A stretch of 64,000 bases of DNA from an uncultured Bacteroidaceae bacterium. GTDB taxonomy: Bacteria; Bacteroidota; Bacteroidia; Bacteroidales; Bacteroidaceae. This document shows, piece after piece, positions 3,099 to 64,000 of the stretch. Under the pieces are notes generated by a model. The model did no database searches. It saw nothing but the letters and a program-made list of their open reading frames with translations, and was not told the origin of the DNA. The position numbers and the translations under genes are program-made. Each line of letters opens with the position of its first letter. Position 1 is the first letter of the stretch. The stretch is from contig CAJOEI010000025.1 of NCBI GenBank assembly GCA_905233465.1, positions 4,951 to 68,950 on the forward strand, written 5' to 3'.

Positions 3099-3125
3099 GG
3101 CTTTGAGACACGAGCAAAGCTCGTA

Positions 3126-3217
3126 GTTTAAAGTTTAAGGTTTAAAGGGAAGTCCATTGAACATTGAACATTGTGAATTATGCATTGTAAATTGTAAATT
3201 GTCAAATTGTAAATTAA
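3126..3217. repeat. mosaic tract with 7-bp periodicity, 13 units
   Basis: The tract reads gtttaaa gtttaag gtttaaa, then a 7-nt gap, then ccattga acattga acattgt gaattat gcattgt aaattgt aaattgt caaattgt aaattaa. It fills the spacer between the tex stop and the start of the membrane-protein gene. Confidence 0.9.
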
Positions 3218-10973: not shown

Positions 10974-11542
10974 CGACAGAAGAGCAGTTCCGGGCGGTGA
11001 TGAGCGAATGCCGCTCCGTATTTCAGGCCAAGTTGCACGATTACGGAGCGGCATGGCGTATTCTGCGAGTGACATCACTCACCGATCAGCTATACATCAA
11101 GGCCAACCGCATCCGCTCGTTAGAGTTGAAGGGCGAGGCGCTTGTAGCTGAGGGCATCCGGCCCGAGTTCGTGGCTATAGTGAACTATGCCATTATCGGT
11201 CTGATACAATTGGCTCATGGTTTTGCCGAGCAACCCGATGATATGACGCCCGAACAGGCTCTGGCAGAGTACGACACGCTCGCCGAAGAGTCGTTGCAGC
11301 TGATGTTGCGCAAGAATCACGACTATGACGAGGCTTGGCGAGGAATGCGTGTGAGTAGCTACACCGACCTGATATTGCAGAAGATATTCCGCACCAAACA
11401 GATAGAGGAACTGGGCGGGGTGACGCTGCAGAGCGAGGGCATCGATGCCAATTACATGGATATGATGAACTATGCTGTCTTCGGCCTCATCAAACTCACC
11501 TATGGGGATGCGGCCTCGCCTCAGTTGAAAGTTGAAAGTTGA
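10970..11542 (+). CDS. DUF1599 domain-containing protein (two repeats)
   Basis: KLHDYGAAWRILRVTSLTDQLYIKANRIRSLE recurs as KNHDYDEAWRGMRVSSYTDLILQKIFRTKQIE. The last codons (PQLKVES) and the stop lie inside the GTTGAAA tract. Confidence 0.7.
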   Translation: MTTEEQFRAVMSECRSVFQAKLHDYGAAWRILRVTSLTDQLYIKANRIRSLELKGEALVAEGIRPEFVAIVNYAIIGLIQLAHGFAEQPDDMTPEQALAEYDTLAEESLQLMLRKNHDYDEAWRGMRVSSYTDLILQKIFRTKQIEELGGVTLQSEGIDANYMDMMNYAVFGLIKLTYGDAASPQLKVES

Positions 11543-11579
11543 GAGTTGAAAGTTGAAAGCGGAAAGATGAAAGTTTCAA
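11524..11579. repeat. 7-bp tandem tract (GTTGAAA)n
   Basis: The tract reads gttgaaa gttgaaa gttgaga gttgaaa gttgaaa gcggaaa gatgaaa gtttcaa. It contains both the stop of the DUF1599 gene (11540-11542) and the ATG of the next gene (11567). Confidence 0.9.
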
Positions 11580-12733: not shown

Positions 12734-12763
12734 TTCGCTCACAATTCATAATTCACAATTCGA
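12725..12763. repeat. 7-bp tandem tract (AATTCAY)
   Basis: The tract reads aattcat aattcgc (tcac) aattcat aattcac aattcga. The TAA stop of the upstream gene (12731-12733) lies in the tract. Confidence 0.85.
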
Positions 12764-12766
12764 ACC

Positions 12767-12796
12767 ACTTTCAACTTTCAACTGCGGCATAGCCGC
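12767..12796 (+). promoter_or_regulatory. leader element copy 1: (ACTTTCA)2-ACT-GCGGC-ATA-GCCGC
   Basis: The heptamer pair and a 5-bp GC hairpin end 9 nt before the ansA ATG (12806). The same architecture is seen at 17182-17224 (-), 22295-22324 and 22902-22944. Confidence 0.7.
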
Positions 12797-13985: not shown

Positions 13986-14018
13986 GATTTGCATATTTTT
14001 GCCCAGTCGTTTGGCTTT

Positions 14019-14128
14019 GTCCACGAACGCGGACGATATTGTCCACGACCACGGACGAAATAGTCCACGAACGTGTACGAAATAGTCCACGACCGCGGAC
14101 GATATTGTCCACGAACGTGGACAAATAG
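14019..14128. repeat. five tandem 22-bp repeats, each with a GTCCACG-AM-CGYGGAC palindromic core
   Basis: The units are gtccacgaacgcggacgatatt / gtccacgaccacggacgaaata / gtccacgaacgtgtacgaaata / gtccacgaccgcggacgatatt / gtccacgaacgtggacaaatag. They are head to tail with no spacers. ACGA recurs every 11 bp. Confidence 0.9.
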
Positions 14129-14210
14129 AATCATCCGGTCGATACACAAGAAACCACTGGTGGAATCAGTAGGAACCAACGGATGAATGGTTCGACAGCT
14201 CACCATAAAT

Positions 14211-14246
14211 CAACTTTCAACTTTCAATTTTCAATTTTCAACTTTC
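14211..14246. repeat. 7-bp tandem tract (CAACTTT/CAATTTT) abutting a start codon
   Basis: The tract reads caacttt caacttt caatttt caatttt caacttt c, followed directly by ATG 14247. Confidence 0.9.
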
Positions 14247-16358
14247 ATGAGCTTAATCCGTAATCTCATGGTCCTCTGTGGCTTAAGTCTGCTCGGGCTG
14301 GTGCCTGTTCAGTCTGAAAACGACTTTGGCAATCTGCGCCGCTATGCTTCTGACAACGCCCGCGTACGTGAACTGCCGCAGGAGCAGCGGCGCGCTGTGT
14401 TCATCGGCAACAGCATCACCGAGGGATGGCGTAACCAACGTCCCGACTTCTTTCAGAAGAACGGCTACATAGGCCGCGGCATCAGCGGACAGACATCCTA
14501 TCAGTTTGTGGTGCGTTTCCGCGCTGATGTCATAGAGCTGAAGCCGCAGGTGGTGGTCATCAACGTCGCAACAAACGATGTCGCAGAAAACACCTGCCCC
14601 TACAACGAAGACCGCACCTTCGCAAACATCGAGTCGATGGTGGAACAGGCATTAGCCAGCGACATCAAGGTCATCCTCACCACCACTTTGCCCGCCGCAC
14701 GTTTCGGTTGGAACCCCGACATCAAGGACGCCCCCGCCAAGATTGAGAGCCTCAACGCCCGCATCCGCGACTATGCTGCCCGCAAGCGACTGACCTTCGT
14801 GGACTACTATAGCCACATGGTTACTGGCGAGGAGAAGGCTCTGAACCCGGCTTATACAAAAGATGGCGTTCACCCCACTGCCGATGGTTACACGGTGATG
14901 GAGTTGCTCATTAAACCGGCTATCGATAGAGTTTTGGGGCTCGACAAGAAAGATGCCCATCAACTCAGCTTTGCCGAGCGCATAGCCACACCGGCCGACA
15001 ACACACGCGTCACGCGCCGCCCTGTCGAGGGCGAGCGGCTGTTCCGTTCTGACGTCATCGAGCGTAAGATACAAGAGGTCAAGCAGCTGCTTACGGGAGC
15101 GCCTTATCTGGCATGGATGTTCGAGAACTGCTTCCCCAACACGCTCGACACCACTGTCCACTACCAGACCACGGAGGACGGCGACGACGATACCTTTGTC
15201 TATACCGGTGACATCCATGCCATGTGGTTGCGCGACAGTGGTGCGCAGGTGTGGCCCTATGTGCAGTTTGCACGTGAGGACGAAGGGGTGCGCAAGATGG
15301 TGCGTGGCACCATACTACGTCAGCTCAAGTGCATCTGCCTCGACCCCTATGCCAACGCTTTCAATATGGGACCGACGGGCAGCGATTGGGCCAGCGACCT
15401 GACGGATATGACACCCTGGCTGCACGAGCGTAAGTATGAGATTGACTCGCTCTGCTATCCCTTGCGCCTGGCCTACCACTACTGGATAGTGACGGGCGAC
15501 GACAGCATCTTCAGAACGGAACTGTGGAGTAACGCCCTCCGCGCCATACTGAAAACCTTCCGCGAACAGCAGCGCAAGACCAACCACGGCCCCTACCACT
15601 TCCAGCGCCGCACGGCAGCGCAGTATGACACCATGAGTCACAATGGCTACGGCAACCCCATCCGTCCCTGCGGACTCATCGCTTCCGCCTTCCGTCCGAG
15701 CGATGACTGTACGGTGCTGCTCTACCTCGTTCCCTCCAACTTCATGGCCGTATCCAACCTGCGTCGCGCTGCCGACATCCTCACTCGTGTGACAGGTGAC
15801 GCTGCAATGGCAAAGGAGTGTACGGATTTGGCCGATGAGGTGGCAGAAGCGCTGAAGAAATACGCAGTATACAGGCACCCGAAGTATGGCAAAATCTATG
15901 CCTATGAGGTCGATGGTTTCGGCAATCATCTGCTCATGGATGATGCCAATGTGCCATCGCTGCTCGCAATGGCCTATCTTGGCGACGTCTCGCCCAAAGA
16001 CCCGATTTATAAGAACACGCGCCGCTTCGTGCTCAGCGAGGACAATCCTTACTTCTTCCGCGGCAAGGCAGGCGAGGGCATAGGTGGTCCGCACGTGGGC
16101 TATGACATGGTGTGGCCGATGTCTATCATGATGCGCGCCTTCACCTCCACCGATGATGCCGAGATACGTCGCTGTCTGCAAATGCTTGTTGACACCGACG
16201 CTGGCACTGGCTTCATCCACGAGTCGTTCCACAAGGATGACGCATCACGCTATACCCGTTCGTGGTTCGCCTGGCAGAACACGCTCTTCGGAGAACTCAT
16301 CATCAAACTGATTGACGACGGCAAGCTCGACTTGCTCAACTCCATACAGAAAAGTTGA
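14247..16358 (+). CDS. fusion protein: N-terminal SGNH/GDSL hydrolase plus C-terminal GH125 (DUF1237) exo-alpha-1,6-mannosidase-like domain
   Basis: Signal peptide MSLIRNLMVLCGLSLLGLVPVQS. SGNH blocks are FIGNSITEGW, GISGQTS, ATNDV and DGVHPT. The GH125-like motif is FVYTGDIHAMWLRDSGAQVWPY. The track start at 14187 would translate the repeat tract, so ATG 14247 is preferred. Confidence 0.75.
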   Translation: MSLIRNLMVLCGLSLLGLVPVQSENDFGNLRRYASDNARVRELPQEQRRAVFIGNSITEGWRNQRPDFFQKNGYIGRGISGQTSYQFVVRFRADVIELKPQVVVINVATNDVAENTCPYNEDRTFANIESMVEQALASDIKVILTTTLPAARFGWNPDIKDAPAKIESLNARIRDYAARKRLTFVDYYSHMVTGEEKALNPAYTKDGVHPTADGYTVMELLIKPAIDRVLGLDKKDAHQLSFAERIATPADNTRVTRRPVEGERLFRSDVIERKIQEVKQLLTGAPYLAWMFENCFPNTLDTTVHYQTTEDGDDDTFVYTGDIHAMWLRDSGAQVWPYVQFAREDEGVRKMVRGTILRQLKCICLDPYANAFNMGPTGSDWASDLTDMTPWLHERKYEIDSLCYPLRLAYHYWIVTGDDSIFRTELWSNALRAILKTFREQQRKTNHGPYHFQRRTAAQYDTMSHNGYGNPIRPCGLIASAFRPSDDCTVLLYLVPSNFMAVSNLRRAADILTRVTGDAAMAKECTDLADEVAEALKKYAVYRHPKYGKIYAYEVDGFGNHLLMDDANVPSLLAMAYLGDVSPKDPIYKNTRRFVLSEDNPYFFRGKAGEGIGGPHVGYDMVWPMSIMMRAFTSTDDAEIRRCLQMLVDTDAGTGFIHESFHKDDASRYTRSWFAWQNTLFGELIIKLIDDGKLDLLNSIQKS

Positions 16359-16427
16359 AAGTTGAAAGTTCTTTCTGAGGAAAGCGACCAAAGGTCGAGC
16401 GGAAAGATCAAAGTTCAATGTTCAATG
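16354..16427. repeat. 7-bp periodic tract (GTTGAAA ... AAAGTTC AATGTTC)
   Basis: gttgaaa gttgaaa contains the stop codon at 16356-16358. This is followed by agcggaaagatcaaagttcaatgttcaatgggg. The string agcggaaagatNaaagtt also occurs at 11558-11575. Confidence 0.8.
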
Positions 16428-17181: not shown

Positions 17182-17224
17182 GCGGCTAAGCCGCAGTTGA
17201 AGGTTTAGAGTTTAAAGTTGAAAG
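17182..17224 (-). promoter_or_regulatory. leader element copy 2 (minus-strand orientation)
   Basis: The minus strand reads actttca actttaa actctaa accttca act GCGGC tta GCCGC gtctcacttccc ATG. The hairpin ends 12 nt before the nitroreductase start (17169). The tract begins at the stop of the SDR gene (17229). Confidence 0.7.
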
Positions 17225-17228
17225 TTAA

Positions 17229-20735: not shown

Positions 20736-22184
20736 CTACATTTTACAATCTACATTAAAATAATGCTTTGCATTATTGTATGATATATCTTCCACCATTT
20801 GTCGAACACGCTGTTTCTCATAGCCGATGAAAGGTATGAGACCTTGCTCGACATCATTGCCGATGAGGTTGCACAGCACACGGCGGAAATACTCATGGCG
20901 CGGGTAGGACAAGAATGAACGGCTGTCGGTGAGCATACCCACAAAGCGGCTCAGGAGCCCCAGCACAGAGAGAGCATTCAACTGACGTTCCATGCCGTCT
21001 TTCTGGTCCAGGAACCACCAGCCTGAACCCCACTGTATCTTGCCTGCCACACTGCCATCCTGAAAGTTGCCAAGCATAGTAGCCACCATCTCGTTGTCAG
21101 CAGGATTGAGGTTATATAGAATGGTCTTTGCCAGATGGCCCTCGCTGTCCAGCAAGTCGAGGAAACGCGACATCGAATTTGCTGTTTGCCACTGGCCTAT
21201 GCTATCATAACCCGTGTCCGGTCCAATGGACGAGAACATACGGCTGTTGTTGTTGCGCATCGCACCATAGTGGTACTGCTGTACCCAACCGGACGCGTAG
21301 TCCTGCACAGCGAAGATATACAGCATGGCACTCTTGAACTTGCGGACTTCTTCCGCATCAGCCGAACCGCCATTAATTAGCTGTCCGAAGATGCGTTCTA
21401 TCTCTGTGTCGGAATATGGCTCTGAATAGAACTCCTCAAGGCCGTGGTCGCTGAGACGGCAGCCACGAGCGTGGAAGAAGTCGTGACGACGCTGCAGGGC
21501 ATCAATGAAGTCAGAGAACGTGCGAATATCAATATCTGCAACGTTGCCCAACTTTGTCACGTAGGCCCTCCAAGCATCAGCATTCTCCACAGCCATGGCC
21601 TTGTCGGGACGCCACGCAGGCAACATTTTCGTCATTTGACAATTTGACGTTTTACGATTTACGATTTCTTCTGCATAAGCAGAATGATACCTCAAATCAT
21701 CTACAGGGTCGTCTGTGGTGCATACCACTTCCACATTATAGTGTCGCATGAGGCCACGGGCAGAGAAGCGGAGGTCGTGCTGCAGGCGGTCGTTGCATGT
21801 GTCGTAAATCTCACGTGCGGTGTCTGGGTTGAGGCGTTTGTCTATGCCGAAGGCTGTTTTCAGCTCCAGATGTGTCCAGTGATACAATGGATTGCGAAAA
21901 CAGTAAGGCACTGTGGCAGCCCACGCCTGGAACTTCTCCCAGTCGGAGGCGTCGCCGGTGATGAAGCGCTCGTCTACGCCGTTGGTACGCATGGCACGCC
22001 ATTTATAGTGGTCACCGCCCAACCACAACTCGGTAATGCTGCTAAATCGGTGATCTTCTGCCACGAGCTTGGGGTCGAGGTGACAGTGATAGTCTATGAT
22101 TGGCTGCGTAGCAGCATGATGATGATATAGGTCCTGGGCTGTGGTGCTCTGCAACAGGAAGTTCTGGTCAAGGAATGGAGTCAT
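20736..22184 (-). CDS. uxaC: glucuronate isomerase
   Basis: Contains IIDYHCHLDPK, GDHYKWRAMRTNGV, NPLYHWTHLELK, WVQQYHYGAMRNNN and GMLTDSRSFLSYPRHEYFRR. Confidence 0.92.
   Translation of the reverse strand: MTPFLDQNFLLQSTTAQDLYHHHAATQPIIDYHCHLDPKLVAEDHRFSSITELWLGGDHYKWRAMRTNGVDERFITGDASDWEKFQAWAATVPYCFRNPLYHWTHLELKTAFGIDKRLNPDTAREIYDTCNDRLQHDLRFSARGLMRHYNVEVVCTTDDPVDDLRYHSAYAEEIVNRKTSNCQMTKMLPAWRPDKAMAVENADAWRAYVTKLGNVADIDIRTFSDFIDALQRRHDFFHARGCRLSDHGLEEFYSEPYSDTEIERIFGQLINGGSADAEEVRKFKSAMLYIFAVQDYASGWVQQYHYGAMRNNNSRMFSSIGPDTGYDSIGQWQTANSMSRFLDLLDSEGHLAKTILYNLNPADNEMVATMLGNFQDGSVAGKIQWGSGWWFLDQKDGMERQLNALSVLGLLSRFVGMLTDSRSFLSYPRHEYFRRVLCNLIGNDVEQGLIPFIGYEKQRVRQMVEDISYNNAKHYFNVDCKM
21633..21668. 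repeat. 7/8-bp tandem tract inside uxaC
   Basis: The tract reads catttgac aatttgac gttttac gatttac gatttc. It is translated on the minus strand as EIVNRKTSNCQM. Confidence 0.8.
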
Positions 22185-22294: not shown

Positions 22295-22324
22295 ACTTTC
22301 AACTTTCAACTGCGGCTTCGCCGC
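22295..22324 (+). promoter_or_regulatory. leader element copy 3: (ACTTTCA)2-ACT-GCGGC-TTC-GCCGC
   Basis: The hairpin ends 10 nt before ATG 22335. Confidence 0.7.
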
Positions 22325-22901: not shown

Positions 22902-22944
22902 CTTTAAACTTTAAACCTTAAACTTTCAACTGCGGCTTCGCCGC
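22902..22944 (+). repeat. leader-element copy 4: (CTTTAAA)3-CTTTCAA-CT-GCGGC-TTC-GCCGC
   Basis: Same architecture as copies 1-3. Here it overlaps the 3' end of folB on the opposite strand and supplies its last 8 codons and stop. Confidence 0.7.
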
Positions 22945-57769: not shown

Positions 57770-57849
57770 ACGAATTATACGAATTATACGAATATTGTAT
57801 ATGCGTATTTAGTCTGCGCTTATAGATTCGTATAATTCGTATAATTCGT
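57770..57849. repeat. perfect 24-bp inverted repeat built from tandem 9-mers (CGAATTATA), with a 32-nt spacer
   Basis: acgaattatacgaattatacgaat (57770-57793) is the exact reverse complement of attcgtataattcgtataattcgt (57826-57849). It lies 45 nt after the leuA stop. Confidence 0.9.
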
Positions 57850-58025
57850 AGCATAAAGATAATGTCTGCATTTTGACATAGCGCTAATTTGCTGTTGTTT
57901 TGCTCCACAAGCCTGCATGAACCGTTAACAATAGTTAAAACATCGTGCGCGTGCAACGTGCGTATTCTATTATTTGCTTACTTTGTAGCCATAACTAACT
58001 ATAAACCATAAAAAACCTCTATTAT

Positions 58026-61000
58026 ATGAAACGAATACTACTATTCCTGTTCGTTGTCGTCACCTCGGCAATGGCGATGGCAGAGGTCATAACACCAGAG
58101 CAGGCACTGGAGCAAGCTCAGAGCTTCATCTCCAAGAGAGAGGCTGACGGCACCAGGCCTCGCCGTGCCCCGGGCACAGCCGCTTCGCGCCTGACAATGA
58201 CCGGCCAAATTAGCGGACTGTATGTCTTCAACGTAGCTGCCGACGGCGGCTTTGTCATCGTCAGCAACGACGACAGCACACGGCCTATTCTCGGATATTC
58301 CGACAGCGGCAACATCGACATCAACAACATCCCGCAAAACATGCGTGCATGGCTGCAGGGCTATGCCGACGAGATAGCGTGGGCACAGAAGCATCCGACA
58401 CAGCAGACGTCACAGCAGCTGAAGAAGGCCCCGCGACGCATCGGTACACACAGCACCACAGCCATCGAGCCGCTGGTGAAGTCGACGTGGAATCAGGGCG
58501 AACCGTTTAACAACCTATGTCCAACTTACGACGGCAGCAACAAATCTGCCACGGGATGTGTTGCCACAGCAATGGCACAGGTGATGAACTACCACGAGTG
58601 GCCAACGGCAGCCACGCAGTCCATCCCAGGATACACAACAGACAGCCATCAGCTTAGCTTGTCATCGTTAGACCCCGTCACCTTCGACTGGAACAATATG
58701 CTTGATAGCTATCCAGATAATGGATACAACGACACGCAAGCCACAGCCGTAGCTACGCTGCTGCAATATTGCGGCTGGTCCGTCCAGATGGACTATGGGC
58801 CGGAATCGGGCGCAACGACATCTGCAGTGGCGGATGCACTAATAGCCTATTTCGACTACAACTCCAACACCACGCAGTGTGTCATTCGTAGCTTCTACAC
58901 CTATGCCAAGTGGACCGACCTCATCTACCATGAGCTGTCGCAGAACCGTCCTGTGGTATATGGTGGCTCGTCTTCAGGCGGCGGACACGAGTTTGTATGC
59001 GACGGATACAAGTATGAGAACGAGACTGACTTCTTCCACATCAACTGGGGATGGGGCGGCATGAGCGACGAATACTTTGTCCTGTCAGCCCTTGACCCCG
59101 ACCAGCAGGGCATCGGCGGCAGCACCTCCAACGACGGCTTCCACTACGGTCAGGATGCTGTCATAGGCATTCAGCCATCAACAGGCACAGGCACTGTGGC
59201 CAACATCACACCTAATACAATCAAGCTGGCTATGACCAGCATGACACTGAGCAGCAATACCACCTATGTGGGCTTCCCTGTGGATGTCACACTCAGCATC
59301 AAAAACAATAGCTCGGATGACTACGATGGAGACATCTATTTGGGATTGAAATTATCAAAAGGATATAGTCTTGCTGAAGGCAACAACTTCTCCATCCCGG
59401 CTGGAGAGACAAGAGACTGTACCTTCTCATTCAATCCATCAGAAGCAGGCTCCTATGACTTCGTGTTCTTCTTCCCCAATGTTTACGGCTCATATTCTAC
59501 TAATGGCGAAGTTGGAGCTACACTGACTGTAGAACAACCCAGCGGTCTCACCGTGTACGACGGAACAGATGAAAGCCAGGAAGTTCCGGCATACATTTTT
59601 TACTTTGATGAATACACAAGAAGTCAGTTTGTCATTCCAGCGAGCGACTTGACAGCCATGAACGGCAACATAATCAATGCTTTGGTGTTTTATACAACAG
59701 CTGACAACACCCCTTGTACCACGATGTGCCCGGTAGATGTCTATGTGAAGGAGGTGGACTACACCTCTATCAACGCTTTTGAGACAAAGGAGAGTTCAAC
59801 TATCGTCTACCAAGGTAAACTTACCATCCTTCGGTCGGGCTCTGGCGGTGTGCTCACCATACCGCTAACAACCCCTTACGCCTACGGCGGAGGCAATCTG
59901 ATGATAGGCATAGAGAACACCACAGACGATGGCTTTGATGACATCACCTTCTTGGGTCAGACGGTTAATGGGGCCTCTGTTGCCGGCAGTGCAAGCAGTC
60001 TGGCCGGTGTGTATCCAACACAGCAGAACTTCATACCAAAGACATTGTTCATGCATGAGCCTCCTGCCATTGAAATGCCATCCACGCTCACAGCTACCAA
60101 CGTGACCACAAGCGGGGCCACGCTGACCTGGTCGGGCGGCACGGGAAAGTATAATGTGGAATACAAGAAGGTCAGTGATGCAGATTGGACAGTACTCCTC
60201 AGCAACACGACACAGCTCACCTACACCTTTACGAATCTTGATATCTACACCGATTATCAGGCCCGCGTGCAGTCGGTGGATGCCAGCGATGCCACAAGCC
60301 ATTGGAGAACCATAGACTTCTCCACACCTCTGGCGGATGACATGTGTCAGATATCCTTGAAACTGACAGACGGCTATGGTGACGGTTGGAACGACGCAGC
60401 CATACAAGTGGTAGATGTCCTGACCAGCACACTTTTGGGGACATTCGCTAACACCAGTGCGGCAGGTAAGGGCGAAGCACAAACATACTACGCAGCAGTG
60501 CCCAATGACAGAGACATTCAGTTCCAGTGGGTAGCAGGAAGCTATGACAGCGAATGTTCATACGTGGTATATGATGTGAATGGAGATGAGATATTCTCTG
60601 GCAGCGGCGCCATGAATTCATCATTCACCCATCACGTAAACTGCAACGCCATATCCAAACCGAAGGACCTGCTCGTCAGCAACGTGAACGCCAACGCTGC
60701 TACCATCACGTGGACGGGCACCGCTGACAGCTATGAACTGCGCTACAGGGTCGCATCAGGTTTCCGCTATGGCTTCGAGACGGCAGAGCCGTGGGCTGTG
60801 GATGACTTCCCACCATGTAGCACTTACGACGGCGATGGTACGCAGACATACACTTTCAGCGGATGGTCCTTCACAAACCAAGGCTATACCGGTGCATGCA
60901 TTGCTTTCAATAATGATAATAATAGTAGCGGAAGCATGGTATCTCACAGCGGCAACGCCTTCGGCATGATGATGAATCCAAATAGCGGCGCTGCCAACGA

Positions 61001-62180
61001 CTGGTTTATCCTGCCAGAAATAACAATACAAGATGGATATATCCTCTCGTTCTGGGCAAGAGAAATCACATCCAATTATGGTAATGAGATTATCAATGTC
61101 GGTGTCTATGGCGACACAGATGGCACTTTCTCCACGACACTGGCTGATAATGTCGGTATTGCAGGAACGGTGTGGCAAGAATATAAATATGACCTGTCGG
61201 CATACGTAGGCCAAACCGTTCGGCTGGCTATCAACTGTGTTTCGAATGATGTCTTCGGTTTCATGTTCGACGACATCTACGTTGGCAATCCCAACGATGA
61301 CAGCGGTTGGACAACAGTAGCCGATGCCACTTCACCATACTCACTGACTGGATTGGCAGAAGAGACCCTGTACGAGGTTCAGGTGCGTGGCAAATATGTC
61401 TCGGCAGGCTACAGCGCATGGACTCAATCTGCCACCTTCACCACCAACGCAGAAGTCACGCTTGCTAATGTCGGTGACAACACCAATGTCATTAGTACGA
61501 ACAACGGTAAGACGTGCAGCGTCACACTTGCAAACCGCACGCTGTACAAGGACGGCAAGTGGAACACTATCTGCCTGCCCTTCGACGTGACGCTGGCCGA
61601 CAGCCCGCTGGCAGGAGCCACGGCACGCACCGTCACGGCTGCCAGCATCAGCGGCACCACACTCAACATGACGTTCGGCGACGCTGTTGATGTGCTGCAG
61701 GCCGGCACACCGTACATCATCAAGTGGGCAACTGGCAGCGATATTGTAAATCCTGTCTTCGAGGGTGTGCAGATGTCTACGGCATACAACAGCTATGACA
61801 ACGGTCAGACGGGCGATGCATACGTTGGCTTCATCGGCACTTACCAGTCTATGCAGCTCACGGGCGCCTTACTTACCGAATATGCCAACAGAGTACTGTT
61901 GCTCACAGGCAACAATCAACTGCGTTACGCTGTTGAGGGCGTCGGCCTGGGTGCTCAGCGAGCATTCTTCCTGCTCGGCGAAAACGCTTCGTCAGTGAAG
62001 CAGGTGACATCCTTCAGCATCGACTTTGGCGACGACGTGACAACAGGCATCATCTCTGTTGACGACGACACACAGTCGGGCAATGGCCTGTGGTACTCCG
62101 TCGACGGACGTGCCTACACCCAGAAGCCGACAACGAAGGGTATCTATATCAATAACGGTAAAAAGCTAATCATAAAATAA
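58026..62180 (+). CDS. large multidomain C10 cysteine peptidase with Fn3, GDGW-type, choice-of-anchor-J/MAM-like modules and a T9SS C-terminal domain
   Basis: Propeptide region FVIVSNDDSTRPILGYS. Cys context STWNQGEPFNNLCPTY...ATGCVATAMAQVMNYHEWP. His context GGGHEFVCDGYKYENETDFFHINWGWGG. Fn3-like segments LTATNVTTSGATLTWSG and LLVSNVNANAATITWTG. Also DGYGDGWND. The MAM/anchor-J-like region reads NDWFILPEITI...VRLAINCVSNDVFGFMFDDIYV. The tail is GLWYSVDGRAYTQKPTTKGIYINNGKKLIIK. Confidence 0.8.
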   Translation: MKRILLFLFVVVTSAMAMAEVITPEQALEQAQSFISKREADGTRPRRAPGTAASRLTMTGQISGLYVFNVAADGGFVIVSNDDSTRPILGYSDSGNIDINNIPQNMRAWLQGYADEIAWAQKHPTQQTSQQLKKAPRRIGTHSTTAIEPLVKSTWNQGEPFNNLCPTYDGSNKSATGCVATAMAQVMNYHEWPTAATQSIPGYTTDSHQLSLSSLDPVTFDWNNMLDSYPDNGYNDTQATAVATLLQYCGWSVQMDYGPESGATTSAVADALIAYFDYNSNTTQCVIRSFYTYAKWTDLIYHELSQNRPVVYGGSSSGGGHEFVCDGYKYENETDFFHINWGWGGMSDEYFVLSALDPDQQGIGGSTSNDGFHYGQDAVIGIQPSTGTGTVANITPNTIKLAMTSMTLSSNTTYVGFPVDVTLSIKNNSSDDYDGDIYLGLKLSKGYSLAEGNNFSIPAGETRDCTFSFNPSEAGSYDFVFFFPNVYGSYSTNGEVGATLTVEQPSGLTVYDGTDESQEVPAYIFYFDEYTRSQFVIPASDLTAMNGNIINALVFYTTADNTPCTTMCPVDVYVKEVDYTSINAFETKESSTIVYQGKLTILRSGSGGVLTIPLTTPYAYGGGNLMIGIENTTDDGFDDITFLGQTVNGASVAGSASSLAGVYPTQQNFIPKTLFMHEPPAIEMPSTLTATNVTTSGATLTWSGGTGKYNVEYKKVSDADWTVLLSNTTQLTYTFTNLDIYTDYQARVQSVDASDATSHWRTIDFSTPLADDMCQISLKLTDGYGDGWNDAAIQVVDVLTSTLLGTFANTSAAGKGEAQTYYAAVPNDRDIQFQWVAGSYDSECSYVVYDVNGDEIFSGSGAMNSSFTHHVNCNAISKPKDLLVSNVNANAATITWTGTADSYELRYRVASGFRYGFETAEPWAVDDFPPCSTYDGDGTQTYTFSGWSFTNQGYTGACIAFNNDNNSSGSMVSHSGNAFGMMMNPNSGAANDWFILPEITIQDGYILSFWAREITSNYGNEIINVGVYGDTDGTFSTTLADNVGIAGTVWQEYKYDLSAYVGQTVRLAINCVSNDVFGFMFDDIYVGNPNDDSGWTTVADATSPYSLTGLAEETLYEVQVRGKYVSAGYSAWTQSATFTTNAEVTLANVGDNTNVISTNNGKTCSVTLANRTLYKDGKWNTICLPFDVTLADSPLAGATARTVTAASISGTTLNMTFGDAVDVLQAGTPYIIKWATGSDIVNPVFEGVQMSTAYNSYDNGQTGDAYVGFIGTYQSMQLTGALLTEYANRVLLLTGNNQLRYAVEGVGLGAQRAFFLLGENASSVKQVTSFSIDFGDDVTTGIISVDDDTQSGNGLWYSVDGRAYTQKPTTKGIYINNGKKLIIK

Positions 62181-62202: not shown

Positions 62203-62367
62203 ATGAAAAAAGAATATATCATGCCACTGGCACAGGAGTTCCTGTTGCTACAGGAGAGCAGCCTGATGGTTGTCAGCCAAACAAGTACTAATCTCGACCC
62301 GAACGACGAGATAGAGGTTGTAAATGACAACACCCCATTCCCCGAGGACTTCCCATGGGGAAGATAA
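62203..62367 (+). CDS. small acidic ORF (54 aa), hypothetical
   Basis: Below the ORF-track cutoff. My translation is MKKEYIMPLAQEFLLLQESSLMVVSQTSTNLDPNDEIEVVNDNTPFPEDFPWGR. It starts 23 nt after the peptidase stop and is followed by a strong hairpin. Confidence 0.35.
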   Translation: MKKEYIMPLAQEFLLLQESSLMVVSQTSTNLDPNDEIEVVNDNTPFPEDFPWGR

Positions 62368-62380
62368 AAAATAGTTTTGA

Positions 62381-62426
62381 GGAAGTTAAAGAAGTTAAAG
62401 GACGACACCTTAACTTCTTTAACTCC
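62381..62426 (+). terminator. long hairpin built from tandem 9-mers (GAAGTTAAA)
   Basis: ggaagttaaagaagttaaagg-acgaca-ccttaacttctttaactcc forms about 19 bp with two single-nt bulges. No T-tract follows. Confidence 0.5.
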
Positions 62427-62449: not shown

Positions 62450-62926
62450 ATGGTAGGAGAACAGGACAAAGATTTCATGCGTCAGGCTATACGTCTGGCC
62501 GATGACAATGTGGACCACGGCGGCGGTCCCTTCGGTGCCGTCATAGTAAAAGACGGCGAGGTGATTGCAGGAGGATGCAACAGAGTGGTGCCCAATAACG
62601 ACCCCACGGCACACGCCGAAGTCAGCGCCATACGCGAGGCATGCAACAAACTCGGCACATTCGACCTCTCGGGTTGCACCATCTACACCTCATGTGAGCC
62701 TTGCCCCATGTGCCTCGGCGCCATATACTGGGCACGCATAGGACGTATCTATTATGGAAACACGCGATATGATGCACGCGACATCAACTTCGCCGATGAC
62801 TTCATATACGAGGAGATGGATCGCCCGATAGAGCAACGTCAACTGCCCATCATACCCCTCCTGCGCGAAGAAGCCATCCACACCTTCCGCAAGTGGGCAG
62901 AGAAAGAAGACAAAACTGAATATTAA
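62450..62926 (+). CDS. CMP/dCMP-type zinc deaminase (guanine deaminase / nucleoside deaminase-like)
   Basis: Contains PTAHAEVSAIREAC and SCEPCPMCLGAIYWARI. Length is 158 aa. Confidence 0.8.
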   Translation: MVGEQDKDFMRQAIRLADDNVDHGGGPFGAVIVKDGEVIAGGCNRVVPNNDPTAHAEVSAIREACNKLGTFDLSGCTIYTSCEPCPMCLGAIYWARIGRIYYGNTRYDARDINFADDFIYEEMDRPIEQRQLPIIPLLREEAIHTFRKWAEKEDKTEY

Positions 62927-64000
62927 AGGGGCCACTCCACCGGTGCGAAGCCCCTCTTGATGGACAACTCTGACAACGGCGTGACGGCACACCATACCGC
63001 CATATCACGCACGCCAAAGTCGAGAGGTTTACCTGCAGCGAGCGCTCCTATAAGGCGCTCGTTCATTGTTTGTGTGAGGGCCGAATGCGATTGGCTGCCG
63101 TCGTCGCGCACGGTGATGGTGCCACGTGTTCCCACGATGTGGAACAGACGGTCGTAAGGTTGCGGCGTCAGCACATCGTGACGTAGTATGATGGTGCGTC
63201 CCAGCGCCGTGCGTAGCAATGTTGTCGTGTGGTCGCCGTTGCAGAAGTCAGGTGCCGCCGTGCCCATACGCTGCTCGTAGGCCGACGGGCCCGTGAACGC
63301 CGCCGTATCCATACTCACCAACGTAGTGATGCGATCCTGAGGCCATTGACCATTGACCATTGACCATTGAACATTGTCCATTGAGCATTGCCCATTGTCC
63401 ATTGTCCATTGTCCATTGTCCATTGTCCATTGTCCATTTGTAATTCCCAGCGCCATACATATCGGTGCCAATTCATGGGTCGGATACAGGTCGCCGCGCT
63501 GATGCCGGTTCATCTCCAAACGCCAGGGCGTCCAGCGACCATCAAGAGCATGATAGTATGTACCCTCTGCATGTATCGGCATGCCTATCTCGCCCTCACG
63601 TATCCGCCGTATGGCATCAAGGATGGCAGGGTCGTAGCAGCAGTTCTCAAGCATGAAACAATGACAACCCGTCGTCTCCGAAGTCTCAACCAACGCATTG
63701 ATGTCCTCCAACGTCAGCGCAGCAGGCACCTCCACAGCTACATGCCGCCCCGCACGCATAGCCTCTATAGCCAGACGCGCATGGCTCTGCCAGTCAGTAC
63801 ATATATATGTCAGCTTGACAACGTCGACCATTGACCATTGACCATTGACCATTGATTTATGGTGAGCCTGTCGAACCAATTGTCCATTGTCCATTGTTCT
63901 TTGTGCCGCACGCACCCTCTCCACATCCGTGTCACGCAACGCCGATATACGCACCGGCAGCTTCTCGCCGATGCGCAACAGGCTACGCAACGCCGTCATA
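62923..64000 (-). CDS. Gfo/Idh/MocA family oxidoreductase (GH109-like), 5' end probably outside the window, carrying translated heptamer arrays
   Basis: Contains HARLAIEAMRAGRHVAVEVPAALTLEDINALVETSETTGCHCFMLENCCYDP. The ATG at 63999 is only the most upstream in-window Met. Insert peptides are NGQWTMDNGQWTMDNGQCSMDNVQWSMVNGQW and SMVNGQWSMV. Confidence 0.7.
   Translation of the reverse strand, partial: MTALRSLLRIGEKLPVRISALRDTDVERVRAAQRTMDNGQLVRQAHHKSMVNGQWSMVDVVKLTYICTDWQSHARLAIEAMRAGRHVAVEVPAALTLEDINALVETSETTGCHCFMLENCCYDPAILDAIRRIREGEIGMPIHAEGTYYHALDGRWTPWRLEMNRHQRGDLYPTHELAPICMALGITNGQWTMDNGQWTMDNGQCSMDNVQWSMVNGQWPQDRITTLVSMDTAAFTGPSAYEQRMGTAAPDFCNGDHTTTLLRTALGRTIILRHDVLTPQPYDRLFHIVGTRGTITVRDDGSQSHSALTQTMNERLIGALAAGKPLDFGVRDMAVWCAVTPLSELSIKRGFAPVEWPL
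63343..63440. repeat. 14-unit heptamer array inside the Gfo/Idh/MocA CDS
   Basis: (ccattga)x4 acattgt ccattga gcattgc (ccattgt)x6 ccatttg. Perfect runs are at 63343-63370 and 63392-63433. Confidence 0.92.
63828..63904. repeat. second heptamer array inside the same CDS
   Basis: (ccattga)x4, then a 20-nt gap, then ccaattgt ccattgt ccattgt tctttgt. Confidence 0.9.

What the first reader, a model, noticed from the sequence alone, without database searches (positions are those of the whole stretch)
63343..63904. Perfect heptanucleotide arrays translated inside a Gfo/Idh/MocA oxidoreductase gene: candidate slipped-strand phase-variation switch
Two arrays lie inside the ORF and are read through in frame. 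The first is 14 units at 63343-63440, including 4 perfect CCATTGA and 6 perfect CCATTGT. The second is at 63828-63904 and includes 4 perfect CCATTGA. They produce odd peptide inserts (NGQWTMDNGQWTMDNGQCSMDNVQWSMVNGQW and SMVNGQWSMV) in what should be loop regions of the Rossmann and C-terminal domains.

A 7-nt unit shifts the frame by +1 for every unit gained or lost. Perfect runs of 4-6 units are therefore classical substrates for reversible ON/OFF switching. Heptanucleotide contingency repeats are known in other bacteria (for example Haemophilus). I am not aware of a description in Bacteroidota, which typically use invertible promoters instead.
Basis: partly seen in the sequence, partly recalled or inferred. 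Interest (0 to 1): 0.62.

Follow-up and report, generated by a model that had tools for sequence, protein, structure and literature searches.

The report
Frame-shifting 7-base repeats inside an enzyme gene
Two runs of a 7-base tandem repeat really are translated inside a rumen bacterium's sugar-enzyme gene, and one wild copy has lost four units and is broken, but the same repeats sit harmlessly in many housekeeping genes of related bacteria, so this looks like a lineage-wide repeat habit and not a purpose-built on/off switch.

Summary
Both CCATTGA/CCATTGT arrays exist as described and are read through by a 374-aa GH109-like Gfo/Idh/MocA gene. They encode two low-confidence surface loops on an otherwise confident fold.

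Array 1 varies in nature:
- 14 units, in frame: the window and two independent assemblies.
- 8 units, in frame: a strain about 3% diverged.
- 10 units, frameshifted to a 218-aa stump: a contig with no base substitution against the window or its identical twin contig over its 6.6 kb.

So slippage can switch the gene off, and has done so at least once.

The switch reading is only partly supported:
- The same heptamers lie in frame in PurM, PurL-like, RibD, Fmt, RmlD and MenE-like genes of other rumen Bacteroidales. There 23 of 41 arrays are deep inside long ORFs, against 0 of 20 in cyanobacteria.
- In those genomes, perfect tandem repeats of three or more units are almost all period 7 (77, against at most 1 for any other period from 4 to 12).
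- None of the 41 reference arrays splits a gene.
- 20 of 22 strain SNPs in this gene are synonymous.
- The enzyme has no signal peptide.

Best reading: a lineage-wide heptamer microsatellite process filtered by selection, with occasional null alleles. Reversibility and within-population switching could not be tested.

The parts
62923..64000 (-). GH109-like Gfo/Idh/MocA oxidoreductase or glycosidase gene. It is 358 codons from the ATG at 63999. The real GTG start lies 48 nt beyond the window end, giving 374 aa.
   Evidence: ORF. Pfam GFO_IDH_MocA plus Glyco_hydro_109_C. Upstream sequence from identical contigs L001 and L121. AlphaFold pLDDT 90.1; best PDB matches 6T2B and 2IXA.
63343..63440 (-). 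Array 1: 14 heptamer units, 98 nt. It encodes residues 203-235 (TNGQWTMDNGQWTMDNGQCSMDNVQWSMVNGQW), a loop inserted between helix 193-199 and strand 240-247.
   Evidence: Absent from most orthologues. pLDDT falls to 42-73 here.
63343..63370 (-). Perfect run of 4x CCATTGA (TCAATGG on the coding strand).
63371..63391 (-). Three degenerate units: ACATTGT, CCATTGA, GCATTGC. They are absent, together with three CCATTGT units, from the 8-unit allele of the strain in run X9.
   Evidence: Joint 63370->63413 (skips 42 nt) in a 6378-nt contig.
63392..63438 (-). Perfect run of 6x CCATTGT plus CCATT, 47 nt, the longest perfect heptamer run in the window. This is the polymorphic tract: 6 units here, 2 units in contig L001 (frameshift), 3 units in X9.
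63826..63855 (-). Array 2, first part: 4x CCATTGA. It encodes SMVNGQWSMV (residues 65-74) in the variable loop before Rossmann strand 76-82.
   Evidence: pLDDT 51 for residues 61-70.
63877..63897 (-). Array 2, second part: CAATTGT CCATTGT CCATTGT. It encodes TMDNGQL (residues 51-57).

Best explanation
The two arrays are local members of a heptamer-specific tandem-repeat (microsatellite) process that runs through rumen and gut Prevotellaceae and other Bacteroidales.

How I think it works:
1. Seven-base units of the CCATTG(A/T) family arise and expand by replication slippage all over these genomes, inside genes as well as between them.
2. Selection then filters the copies inside genes. They survive only in the stop-free orientation (read as NGQWSMV or NGQWTMD), only at lengths that keep the frame, and only in loops that tolerate extra residues.
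3. Here two such loops of a cytoplasmic GH109-like NAD-dependent enzyme are occupied.
4. The 6-unit perfect CCATTGT run is long enough to keep slipping. It yields both frame-preserving length variants and occasional frameshift null alleles.

The gene is therefore a mutational hot spot that can be knocked out, and in principle restored, by unit gain or loss. That is a by-product of the repeat process, not an evolved regulatory switch.

Shown: the arrays, their translation, their loop location, three natural length alleles including one null, the lineage-wide presence of the same arrays in housekeeping genes, and purifying selection on this gene.

Inferred: slippage as the mechanism, the selection filter, and the lack of adaptive value.
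For: Arrays and translation.

Loop location:
- Orthologues mostly lack the array 1 insert.
- The AlphaFold model has mean pLDDT 90.1 and pTM 0.88. Its only low-confidence segments are at residues about 55-75 and 203-236, which are the two arrays.
- Orthologue P0005 carries unrelated 30-nt and 36-nt tandem repeats in the same two loops.

Natural alleles of array 1:
- 14 units in the window, in L121 (identical), and in L122, an independent assembly with 10 substitutions and a 1-nt indel in 4 kb.
- 10 units in L001, with no substitution in its 6.6 kb, giving 218-aa and 129-aa products.
- 8 units in a single 6378-nt contig of run X9.
- The simulation reproduces the 218-aa product exactly and shows the gene is ON only at 8, 11, 14 or 17 units.
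- The L001 allele contains one 21-mer and eleven 31-mers absent from the 14-unit allele, so it cannot be a simple de Bruijn collapse at k>=21.

Lineage-wide process:
- A scan for (CCATTGW)4 found more than 119 loci.
- In Bacteroidales, 23 of 41 arrays lie deep inside ORFs of at least 200 aa, against 620 of 820 random control positions. The figures are 0 of 20 in cyanobacteria and 0 of 27 in other Bacteroidota.
- Pfam confirms the hosts as AIR synthase, RibD, RmlD, formyltransferase, an AMP-binding enzyme, an rRNA methyltransferase and radical SAM enzymes. One host genome is a cultured isolate, Prevotellaceae bacterium MN60.
- Perfect repeats of three or more units: period 7 gives 77, every other period from 4 to 12 gives at most 1.
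- Depth over the arrays in rumen metagenomes is 100 to several thousand times that of the flanks.

Selection:
- 20 of 22 strain SNPs are synonymous, including 9 of 10 downstream of array 1.
- None of the 41 reference arrays splits a gene.
Against: - The T-type run of array 1 (47 nt perfect) is longer than any in-ORF run among the reference loci (maximum 40 nt), and longer than any intergenic heptamer run in this window (at most 20 nt). A selection filter alone might be expected to erode it.
- An OFF allele on a background with no substitution is what a contingency locus would show.
- The recurrence of one unit family across unrelated genes and phyla is not explained by simple local slippage. 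It points to an unknown sequence-specific seeding or spreading step.
- The loci in the census were chosen because they hold CCATTGW arrays, so unit-type counts are biased.
Confidence: 0.68

Rival explanations
1. This is a genuine contingency locus. The heptamer tract is maintained because reversible slipped-strand ON/OFF switching of this GH109-like enzyme benefits the population as bet-hedging, as with simple-sequence-repeat loci of Haemophilus or Neisseria.
For: - The unit is not a multiple of 3, and only one unit count in three is ON.
- Six perfect units form the longest run in the window.
- A natural OFF allele exists on a background with no substitution, and an in-frame variant exists in another strain.
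- The gene is intact and under purifying selection, as contingency genes are when ON.
- H. influenzae has in-ORF heptanucleotide repeats with frameshifts (PMC2651432).
Against: - Identical arrays occur in frame in essential-type housekeeping genes, where switching cannot be beneficial.
- None of 41 reference arrays splits a gene, whereas contingency loci are often OFF in sequenced genomes.
- A strain about 0.3% diverged keeps exactly the same 14 units.
- The product lacks a signal peptide and is not a surface, LPS or restriction-modification function.
- Only one OFF allele was seen, from one short-read contig.
- No within-sample mixture could be shown.
Confidence: 0.14
2. The arrays are insertions of a small mobile or copy-pasted cassette, comparable to Rickettsia palindromic elements or the cyanobacterial small dispersed repeats that live in heptamer arrays. 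They would spread by transposition-like or gene-conversion events and only secondarily slip.
For: - The same unit family recurs in unrelated genes, species and phyla.
- Both arrays in this gene share the same layout, with CCATTGA units followed by CCATTGT units.
- Copy number in rumen metagenomes is very high.
- Earlier scan notes report hairpin cassettes inside such arrays elsewhere. These are leads only.
Against: - No inverted repeat or hairpin involves either array.
- There are no target-site duplications or conserved non-repeat cores. The arrays are pure head-to-tail units with point-mutated copies.
- The observed allele differences are whole-unit gains or losses, as slippage predicts.
- No mobility protein is associated with the locus.
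Confidence: 0.13
3. This is an assembly or sequencing artefact. Either the arrays, or the 6-versus-2 unit difference, were produced by misassembly of short reads over a repeat.
For: - The OFF allele comes from a single MEGAHIT-style contig.
- Assemblers can mishandle tandem repeats.
- The two assemblies with no substitution between them may derive from the same sample.
Against: - The 14-unit allele is present in three contigs from independent assemblies and samples.
- The 10-unit allele needs k-mers that the 14-unit allele lacks.
- A 47-nt run is shorter than a read.
- Arrays of the same kind occur in a cultured isolate genome (L089).
- Run X9 shows a third allele in a clean 6.4-kb contig.
Confidence: 0.05

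Closest known systems
Heptanucleotide simple sequence repeats of Haemophilus influenzae: (TGAAAGA)n in the hmw1A/hmw2A promoters, (AATTTTG)14 inside hmw1A of strain PittAA, and (AACAACC)n in an HI1369-like TonB-dependent receptor gene (Power et al. 2009, PMC2651432; Dawid et al. 1999 as cited there)
   Same: A 7-nt unit, some tracts inside ORFs, and unit-number differences between strains that truncate the ORF. Slipped-strand mispairing is the presumed mechanism.
   Different: - In Haemophilus the repeats are confined to a few surface or uptake genes and are unique to those loci.
- Here the same unit family is dispersed over many genes, including housekeeping ones.
- Here the host gene is a cytoplasmic enzyme, and almost all copies are in frame.
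Heptanucleotide long simple sequence repeats of prokaryotes (Mrazek, Guo and Shah 2007, as summarised in PMC4679880), including the cyanobacterial STRR heptamers
   Same: A genome-wide excess of tandem repeats with a 7-nt period specifically. The same unit recurs at many loci. The same CCATTGW arrays were found in Calothrix and Fischerella.
   Different: In cyanobacteria the arrays are intergenic (0 of 20 in long ORFs). In rumen Bacteroidales more than half lie in frame inside genes (23 of 41).
TAACTGA heptamer direct repeats of marine Beggiatoaceae, cyanobacteria and five Bacteroidetes (MacGregor 2015, PMC4679880)
   Same: Heptamer direct repeats shared across distant phyla, including Bacteroidetes. 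In this window, AT-rich heptamer arrays also sit at gene junctions and in the 5' leader of this very gene.
   Different: - TAACTGA carries stops and is almost exclusively upstream of start codons, where a translational role was proposed.
- CCATTGW on the coding strand is stop-free and is translated.
GH109 alpha-N-acetylgalactosaminidases (Akkermansia muciniphila 6T2B; Elizabethkingia meningoseptica NagA 2IXA)
   Same: A Rossmann GFO_IDH_MocA domain plus a Glyco_hydro_109_C domain. Foldseek TM-score 0.76-0.78 normalised to the query.
   Different: - About 25% identity.
- About 70 residues shorter, with no signal peptide.
- Activity unknown.
- The two repeat-encoded loops are absent from the solved structures' alignment.

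Membership tests
Simple-sequence-repeat contingency locus (slipped-strand phase variation) | A tandem repeat whose unit is not a multiple of 3, lying inside the ORF so that unit gain or loss changes the frame | tested here: met
   A 7-nt unit with 14 units in the ORF. Simulation: ON only at 8, 11, 14 or 17 units.
Simple-sequence-repeat contingency locus (slipped-strand phase variation) | ON and OFF alleles differing only in unit number among near-identical genomes | tested here: met
   L001 has no substitution in its 6.6 kb but lacks 4 units, which truncates the product to 218 aa. Only one such allele was seen.
Simple-sequence-repeat contingency locus (slipped-strand phase variation) | High-frequency, reversible switching within a clonal population | not testable with these tools
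   Only k=31 Logan contigs were available, and they break at the arrays.
Simple-sequence-repeat contingency locus (slipped-strand phase variation) | Repeats concentrated in genes for surface structures, uptake or restriction-modification rather than spread at random | tested here: not met
   The host is a cytoplasmic enzyme. The same arrays occur in PurM, RibD, Fmt, RmlD and similar genes. None of 41 reference arrays splits a gene.
Dispersed heptanucleotide long simple sequence repeats (STRR-like) | An excess of tandem repeats at period 7 specifically, at many loci | tested here: met
   77 perfect runs of three or more units at period 7, against at most 1 at each other period from 4 to 12, in 316 kb. 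In the window the counts are 3 against 0. Part of the period-7 count comes from the arrays used to select the loci.
Dispersed heptanucleotide long simple sequence repeats (STRR-like) | The same unit shared between loci and taxa | tested here: met
   (CCATTGW)4 occurs in more than 119 loci from Bacteroidales, Chitinophagia, cyanobacteria, Chloroflexota and others.
Dispersed heptanucleotide long simple sequence repeats (STRR-like) | Essentially intergenic location | tested here: not met
   23 of 41 Bacteroidales arrays are deep inside long ORFs, against 0 of 20 in cyanobacteria.
In-frame palindromic mobile elements (RPE-like) | An inverted-repeat or hairpin structure in the inserted element | tested here: not met
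   No inverted repeat involves either array.
Glycoside hydrolase family 109 / Gfo-Idh-MocA | An N-terminal NAD-binding Rossmann domain with a GxGxxG-type motif, plus the GH109 C-terminal domain | tested here: met
   Pfam PF01408 (E = 6e-9) and PF21252 (E = 4.6e-22). IGLGDRG is restored by the upstream GTG start. Fold matches to 6T2B and 2IXA.
Glycoside hydrolase family 109 / Gfo-Idh-MocA | Secreted alpha-N-acetylgalactosaminidase activity with the GH109 catalytic residues | not tested
   There is no signal peptide, since the protein begins with Rossmann strand 1. Catalytic residues were not mapped.

The most novel reading that the evidence does not exclude
Rumen Prevotellaceae may use their genome-wide heptamer tracts as a distributed contingency system. 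Long perfect tracts such as the 6-unit CCATTGT run here would give stochastic, reversible knock-out of non-essential metabolic genes. That would be the first repeat-based phase variation described in Bacteroidota, and the L001 allele would be a switched-off cell line caught in nature. A separate unknown is the sequence-specific process that seeds the same CCATTGW unit into unrelated genes across phyla.
Probability: 0.14. Interest if true: 0.75.

Novelty: new variant of a known kind. Interest (0 to 1): 0.5.

Why it matters
The locus gives a concrete natural example of a heptanucleotide coding repeat in a Bacteroidota bacterium producing all three outcomes: a full-length allele, a shorter in-frame allele and a frameshift null. 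Bacteroidota are known for invertase-driven rather than repeat-driven variation.

It also belongs to a little-described lineage-wide pattern. Period-7 repeats of one unit family are translated inside ordinary enzymes of rumen Bacteroidales. This bears on several practical and open questions:
- How microsatellites arise in bacteria.
- How much insertion protein loops tolerate.
- How gene callers and MAG pipelines mis-split such genes. Here the database holds the 218-aa and 129-aa fragments as separate proteins.
- How strain-level gene loss happens in the rumen.

If switching were shown to be fast and reversible, it would add a new class of contingency loci in a major gut phylum.

Tried and rejected
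- **Whole-genome census.** The census therefore rests on the 64-kb window and on loci fetched by pattern.
- **Unit counts from public runs.** All 30 or so holder runs are kept only as k=31 Logan contigs, which break at the arrays. Signal from thousands of other CCATTGW loci swamps them. Only run X9 gave a spanning contig.
- **The single metagenome-contig scan, run with the protein as query.** It was captured by the repeat-encoded peptide words. It returned arrays in unrelated metagenomes instead of species-level orthologues.
- **Hairpin or RPE-like element.** Rejected, since there is no inverted repeat.
- **Assembly collapse as the origin of the 10-unit allele.** Rejected on k-mer grounds and because of the independent assemblies.
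- **Frame-split genes at arrays in 41 reference Bacteroidales arrays.** Four hits, all spurious alternative-frame ORFs.
- **Literature.** Searches for heptamer or 7-bp repeats in Prevotella found nothing specific.

Full report
**What is there**

On the + strand, 63343-63440 holds 14 head-to-tail heptamers. In order they are four CCATTGA, then ACATTGT, CCATTGA and GCATTGC, then six CCATTGT, and a final CCATTTG.

A second site holds four CCATTGA at 63828-63855. A 21-nt non-repeat spacer follows, and then CAATTGT CCATTGT CCATTGT at 63877-63897.

A three-unit CCATTGW pattern allowing one mismatch matches 11 times in the window. All matches lie in this gene, and none is expected from shuffles. No inverted repeat involves the arrays, so they are plain direct repeats.

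**The gene**

The minus-strand ORF 62923..63999 reads through both arrays. It matches Pfam GFO_IDH_MocA and Glyco_hydro_109_C.

The ORF runs off the window. Identical public contigs (L001, L121) show that the frame continues 16 codons upstream to a GTG. This restores the first Rossmann strand and the IGLGDRG motif, giving 374 aa. Heptamers of another type (TTCAATT TTCAACT TTCAATT) lie in the leader just upstream of that start.

An AlphaFold model built on 70 homologues is confident, with mean pLDDT 90.1 and pTM 0.88. Its nearest solved folds are the GH109 enzymes 6T2B and 2IXA. The protein begins directly with the Rossmann strand, so it has no signal peptide.

**Where the repeats fall in the protein**

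- Array 1 encodes residues 203-235. Array 2 encodes residues 48-74.
- These are the only low-confidence parts of the model. Ten-residue block means fall to 42-73 for array 1 and 51-74 for array 2.
- Most orthologues go straight from ALGIG to DRL where array 1 sits, so array 1 is a net insertion of about 32 residues.
- The array 2 site is a variable linker of similar length in orthologues.
- One orthologue (P0005, a Bacteroidaceae MAG) carries unrelated tandem repeats of 30 nt and 36 nt in exactly these two loops. Both loops are therefore generally permissive to repeat expansion.

**Natural variation of array 1**

The protein database holds three products from this locus: the 358-aa ORF, a 218-aa protein and a 129-aa protein.

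*The 10-unit allele.* The 218-aa and 129-aa pair comes from contig L001 (58 kb).
- L001 has no substitution against the window over the 3.7 kb they share. It also has none against L121, which is identical to the window, over a further 2 kb upstream.
- Its only difference is a 28-nt gap, equal to four CCATTGT units, so six units become two.
- Deleting four units in silico reproduces the 218-aa product exactly. Only totals of 8, 11, 14 or 17 units give the full protein.
- The two-unit allele contains a 21-mer and eleven 31-mers that the six-unit allele lacks. It therefore cannot arise by simple graph collapse at k>=21.

*The 14-unit allele.* It is seen in L121, which is identical to the window. 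It is also seen in L122, an independent assembly found in two samples that differs by 10 substitutions and one 1-nt indel in 4 kb.

*The 8-unit allele.* In run X9, a bovine gut metagenome, a strain about 3% diverged has a single 6378-nt contig that joins 63370 to 63413. The 42 nt lost equal six units, so the frame is kept.

In total three length alleles exist, two in frame and one null.

Other runs gave no count, because k=31 contigs end inside the arrays. For the same reason, length variation at array 2 could not be resolved.

**Selection on the gene**

Twenty of the 22 strain SNPs reported by the read-laying runs are synonymous in this frame. That includes 9 of the 10 that lie downstream of array 1. 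The full-length frame is therefore maintained across strains.

**The wider pattern**

Depth over the arrays in rumen metagenomes is 100 to several thousand times that of the flanks. Thousands of other loci must carry the same units.

They include many rumen and gut Prevotella, Prevotellaceae, Bacteroidaceae and Bacteroidales MAGs, a cultured Prevotellaceae isolate (MN60), and also cyanobacteria, Chitinophagia, Chloroflexota and others.

Location of perfect runs of at least 28 nt:

| Group | Deep inside ORFs of 200 aa or more | Random control positions |
|---|---|---|
| Bacteroidales | 23 of 41 | 620 of 820 |
| Cyanobacteria | 0 of 20 | 209 of 340 |
| Other Bacteroidota | 0 of 27 | 323 of 460 |
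| Other phyla | 12 of 41 | 511 of 660 |

Pfam confirms real housekeeping hosts. They are AIR synthase, RibD, RmlD, methionyl-tRNA formyltransferase, an AMP-binding enzyme from the isolate, an rRNA methyltransferase and two radical SAM enzymes (one with a HemN C-terminal domain). Each carries NGQWSMV-type or NGQWTMD-type inserts.

In 316 kb of these Bacteroidales loci, perfect repeats of three or more units number 77 at period 7. Every other period from 4 to 12 gives at most 1. Part of the period-7 count comes from the arrays used to select the loci.

None of the 41 arrays splits a gene into two frames.

Within the window itself, heptamer arrays of AT-rich units lie at many gene junctions.

**Interpretation**

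Several facts argue against an evolved switch:
- The same repeats sit in frame in genes that cannot be usefully switched.
- Reference arrays almost never break a gene.
- The host here is a cytoplasmic enzyme under purifying selection.

Together these favour a lineage-wide heptamer slippage process filtered by selection for stop-free orientation, frame and loop tolerance. This gene then carries an unusually long, and so unstable, perfect tract.

Two things remain unexplained:
- Why period 7 and this unit family dominate across unrelated genes and phyla.
- Why a 47-nt perfect run persists in a coding region.

**Comparison with what is known**

- Heptanucleotide repeats that modulate or truncate genes are documented in Haemophilus influenzae. 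They occur in the hmw promoters, inside hmw1A in one strain, and in a TonB-dependent receptor gene (PMC2651432).
- An excess of heptanucleotide repeats in prokaryotes, and heptamer repeats shared by Beggiatoaceae, cyanobacteria and five Bacteroidetes, are described. Those are intergenic elements (PMC4679880).
- I found no paper on translated heptamer arrays in Prevotella or other rumen Bacteroidales.
- Earlier notes of this scan report the same phenomenon in other rumen Prevotella windows, mostly with frame-preserving changes only. I treated them as leads. The frameshift allele found here is the exception to their pattern.

**Limits**

- No raw reads were available.
- The OFF allele rests on one contig, which may come from the same sample as the window. 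Only run X1 holds this exact strain.
- The locus census is biased towards CCATTGW arrays.

Noticed in passing
window 3125-3215, 11523-11575, 12739-12783, 14210-14247, 16351-16427, 17195-17226, 22295-22311, 22902-22931: AT-rich heptamer arrays sit at many gene junctions. They mostly belong to the AAGTTGA/TCAACTT family, with some CATTGAA and ATTGTAA units. Perfect runs there are short (17-20 nt), unlike the 28-47 nt runs inside the GH109-like gene.
   Followed up: partly
L001 2930-2952 (just beyond the window end, upstream of the gene's GTG start): The 5' leader of the same gene carries TTCAATT TTCAACT TTCAATT heptamers that end in the in-frame codon immediately before the GTG start. The gene therefore has repeat tracts in its leader as well as in its coding region.
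   Followed up: no
window 21642-21667 inside ORF 20736-22184 (-): A short ATTTACG-type tract of 7-8 nt units lies inside a full-length glucuronate isomerase gene (UxaC; Pfam E = 6.5e-197 over the whole profile). This is a second in-frame repeat insert in this window.
   Followed up: partly
L203 499-557 and 957-1067 (orthologue P0005, Bacteroidaceae MAG GCA_017445145.1): An orthologue of the gene has tandem repeats of 30 nt and 36 nt, both multiples of three, in the same two loops that hold the heptamer arrays here. They encode GGSINSGNS-type and SPAPVPGAFSAG-type repeats.
   Followed up: partly
window 14017-14128: Five copies of a 22-nt unit (consensus TTGTCCACGAACGCGGACGAAA; also scored as a 44-nt period) lie upstream of the ORF that starts near 14187-14247.
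   Followed up: no
window 57770-57850 and 62382-62400: Tandem 9-mers (ACGAATTAT / TATAATTCG and GAAGTTAAA) lie at gene ends. The first pair is in opposite orientation and could form a long hairpin.
   Followed up: no
window 58026-62180 (+) and 62203-62367 (+): A 1384-aa protein has Spi inhibitor-like, Peptidase_C10 and fn3 domains. It is followed by a small 54-codon ORF that gene callers also call in the sister contigs.
   Followed up: no
L001 2542-2691: Between the upstream lipoprotein-like gene and the GH109-like gene lies a 49-codon open frame. By eye it resembles the N-terminal part of an FKBP-type isomerase and may be a gene remnant. This was not tested.
   Followed up: no
L016, L044, L047, L050, L120 (Peptococcaceae MAG Nt197P3bin107): A Firmicutes MAG carries many CCATTGT-type arrays, several of them inside long ORFs. 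In-gene heptamer arrays are therefore not limited to Bacteroidales.
   Followed up: no
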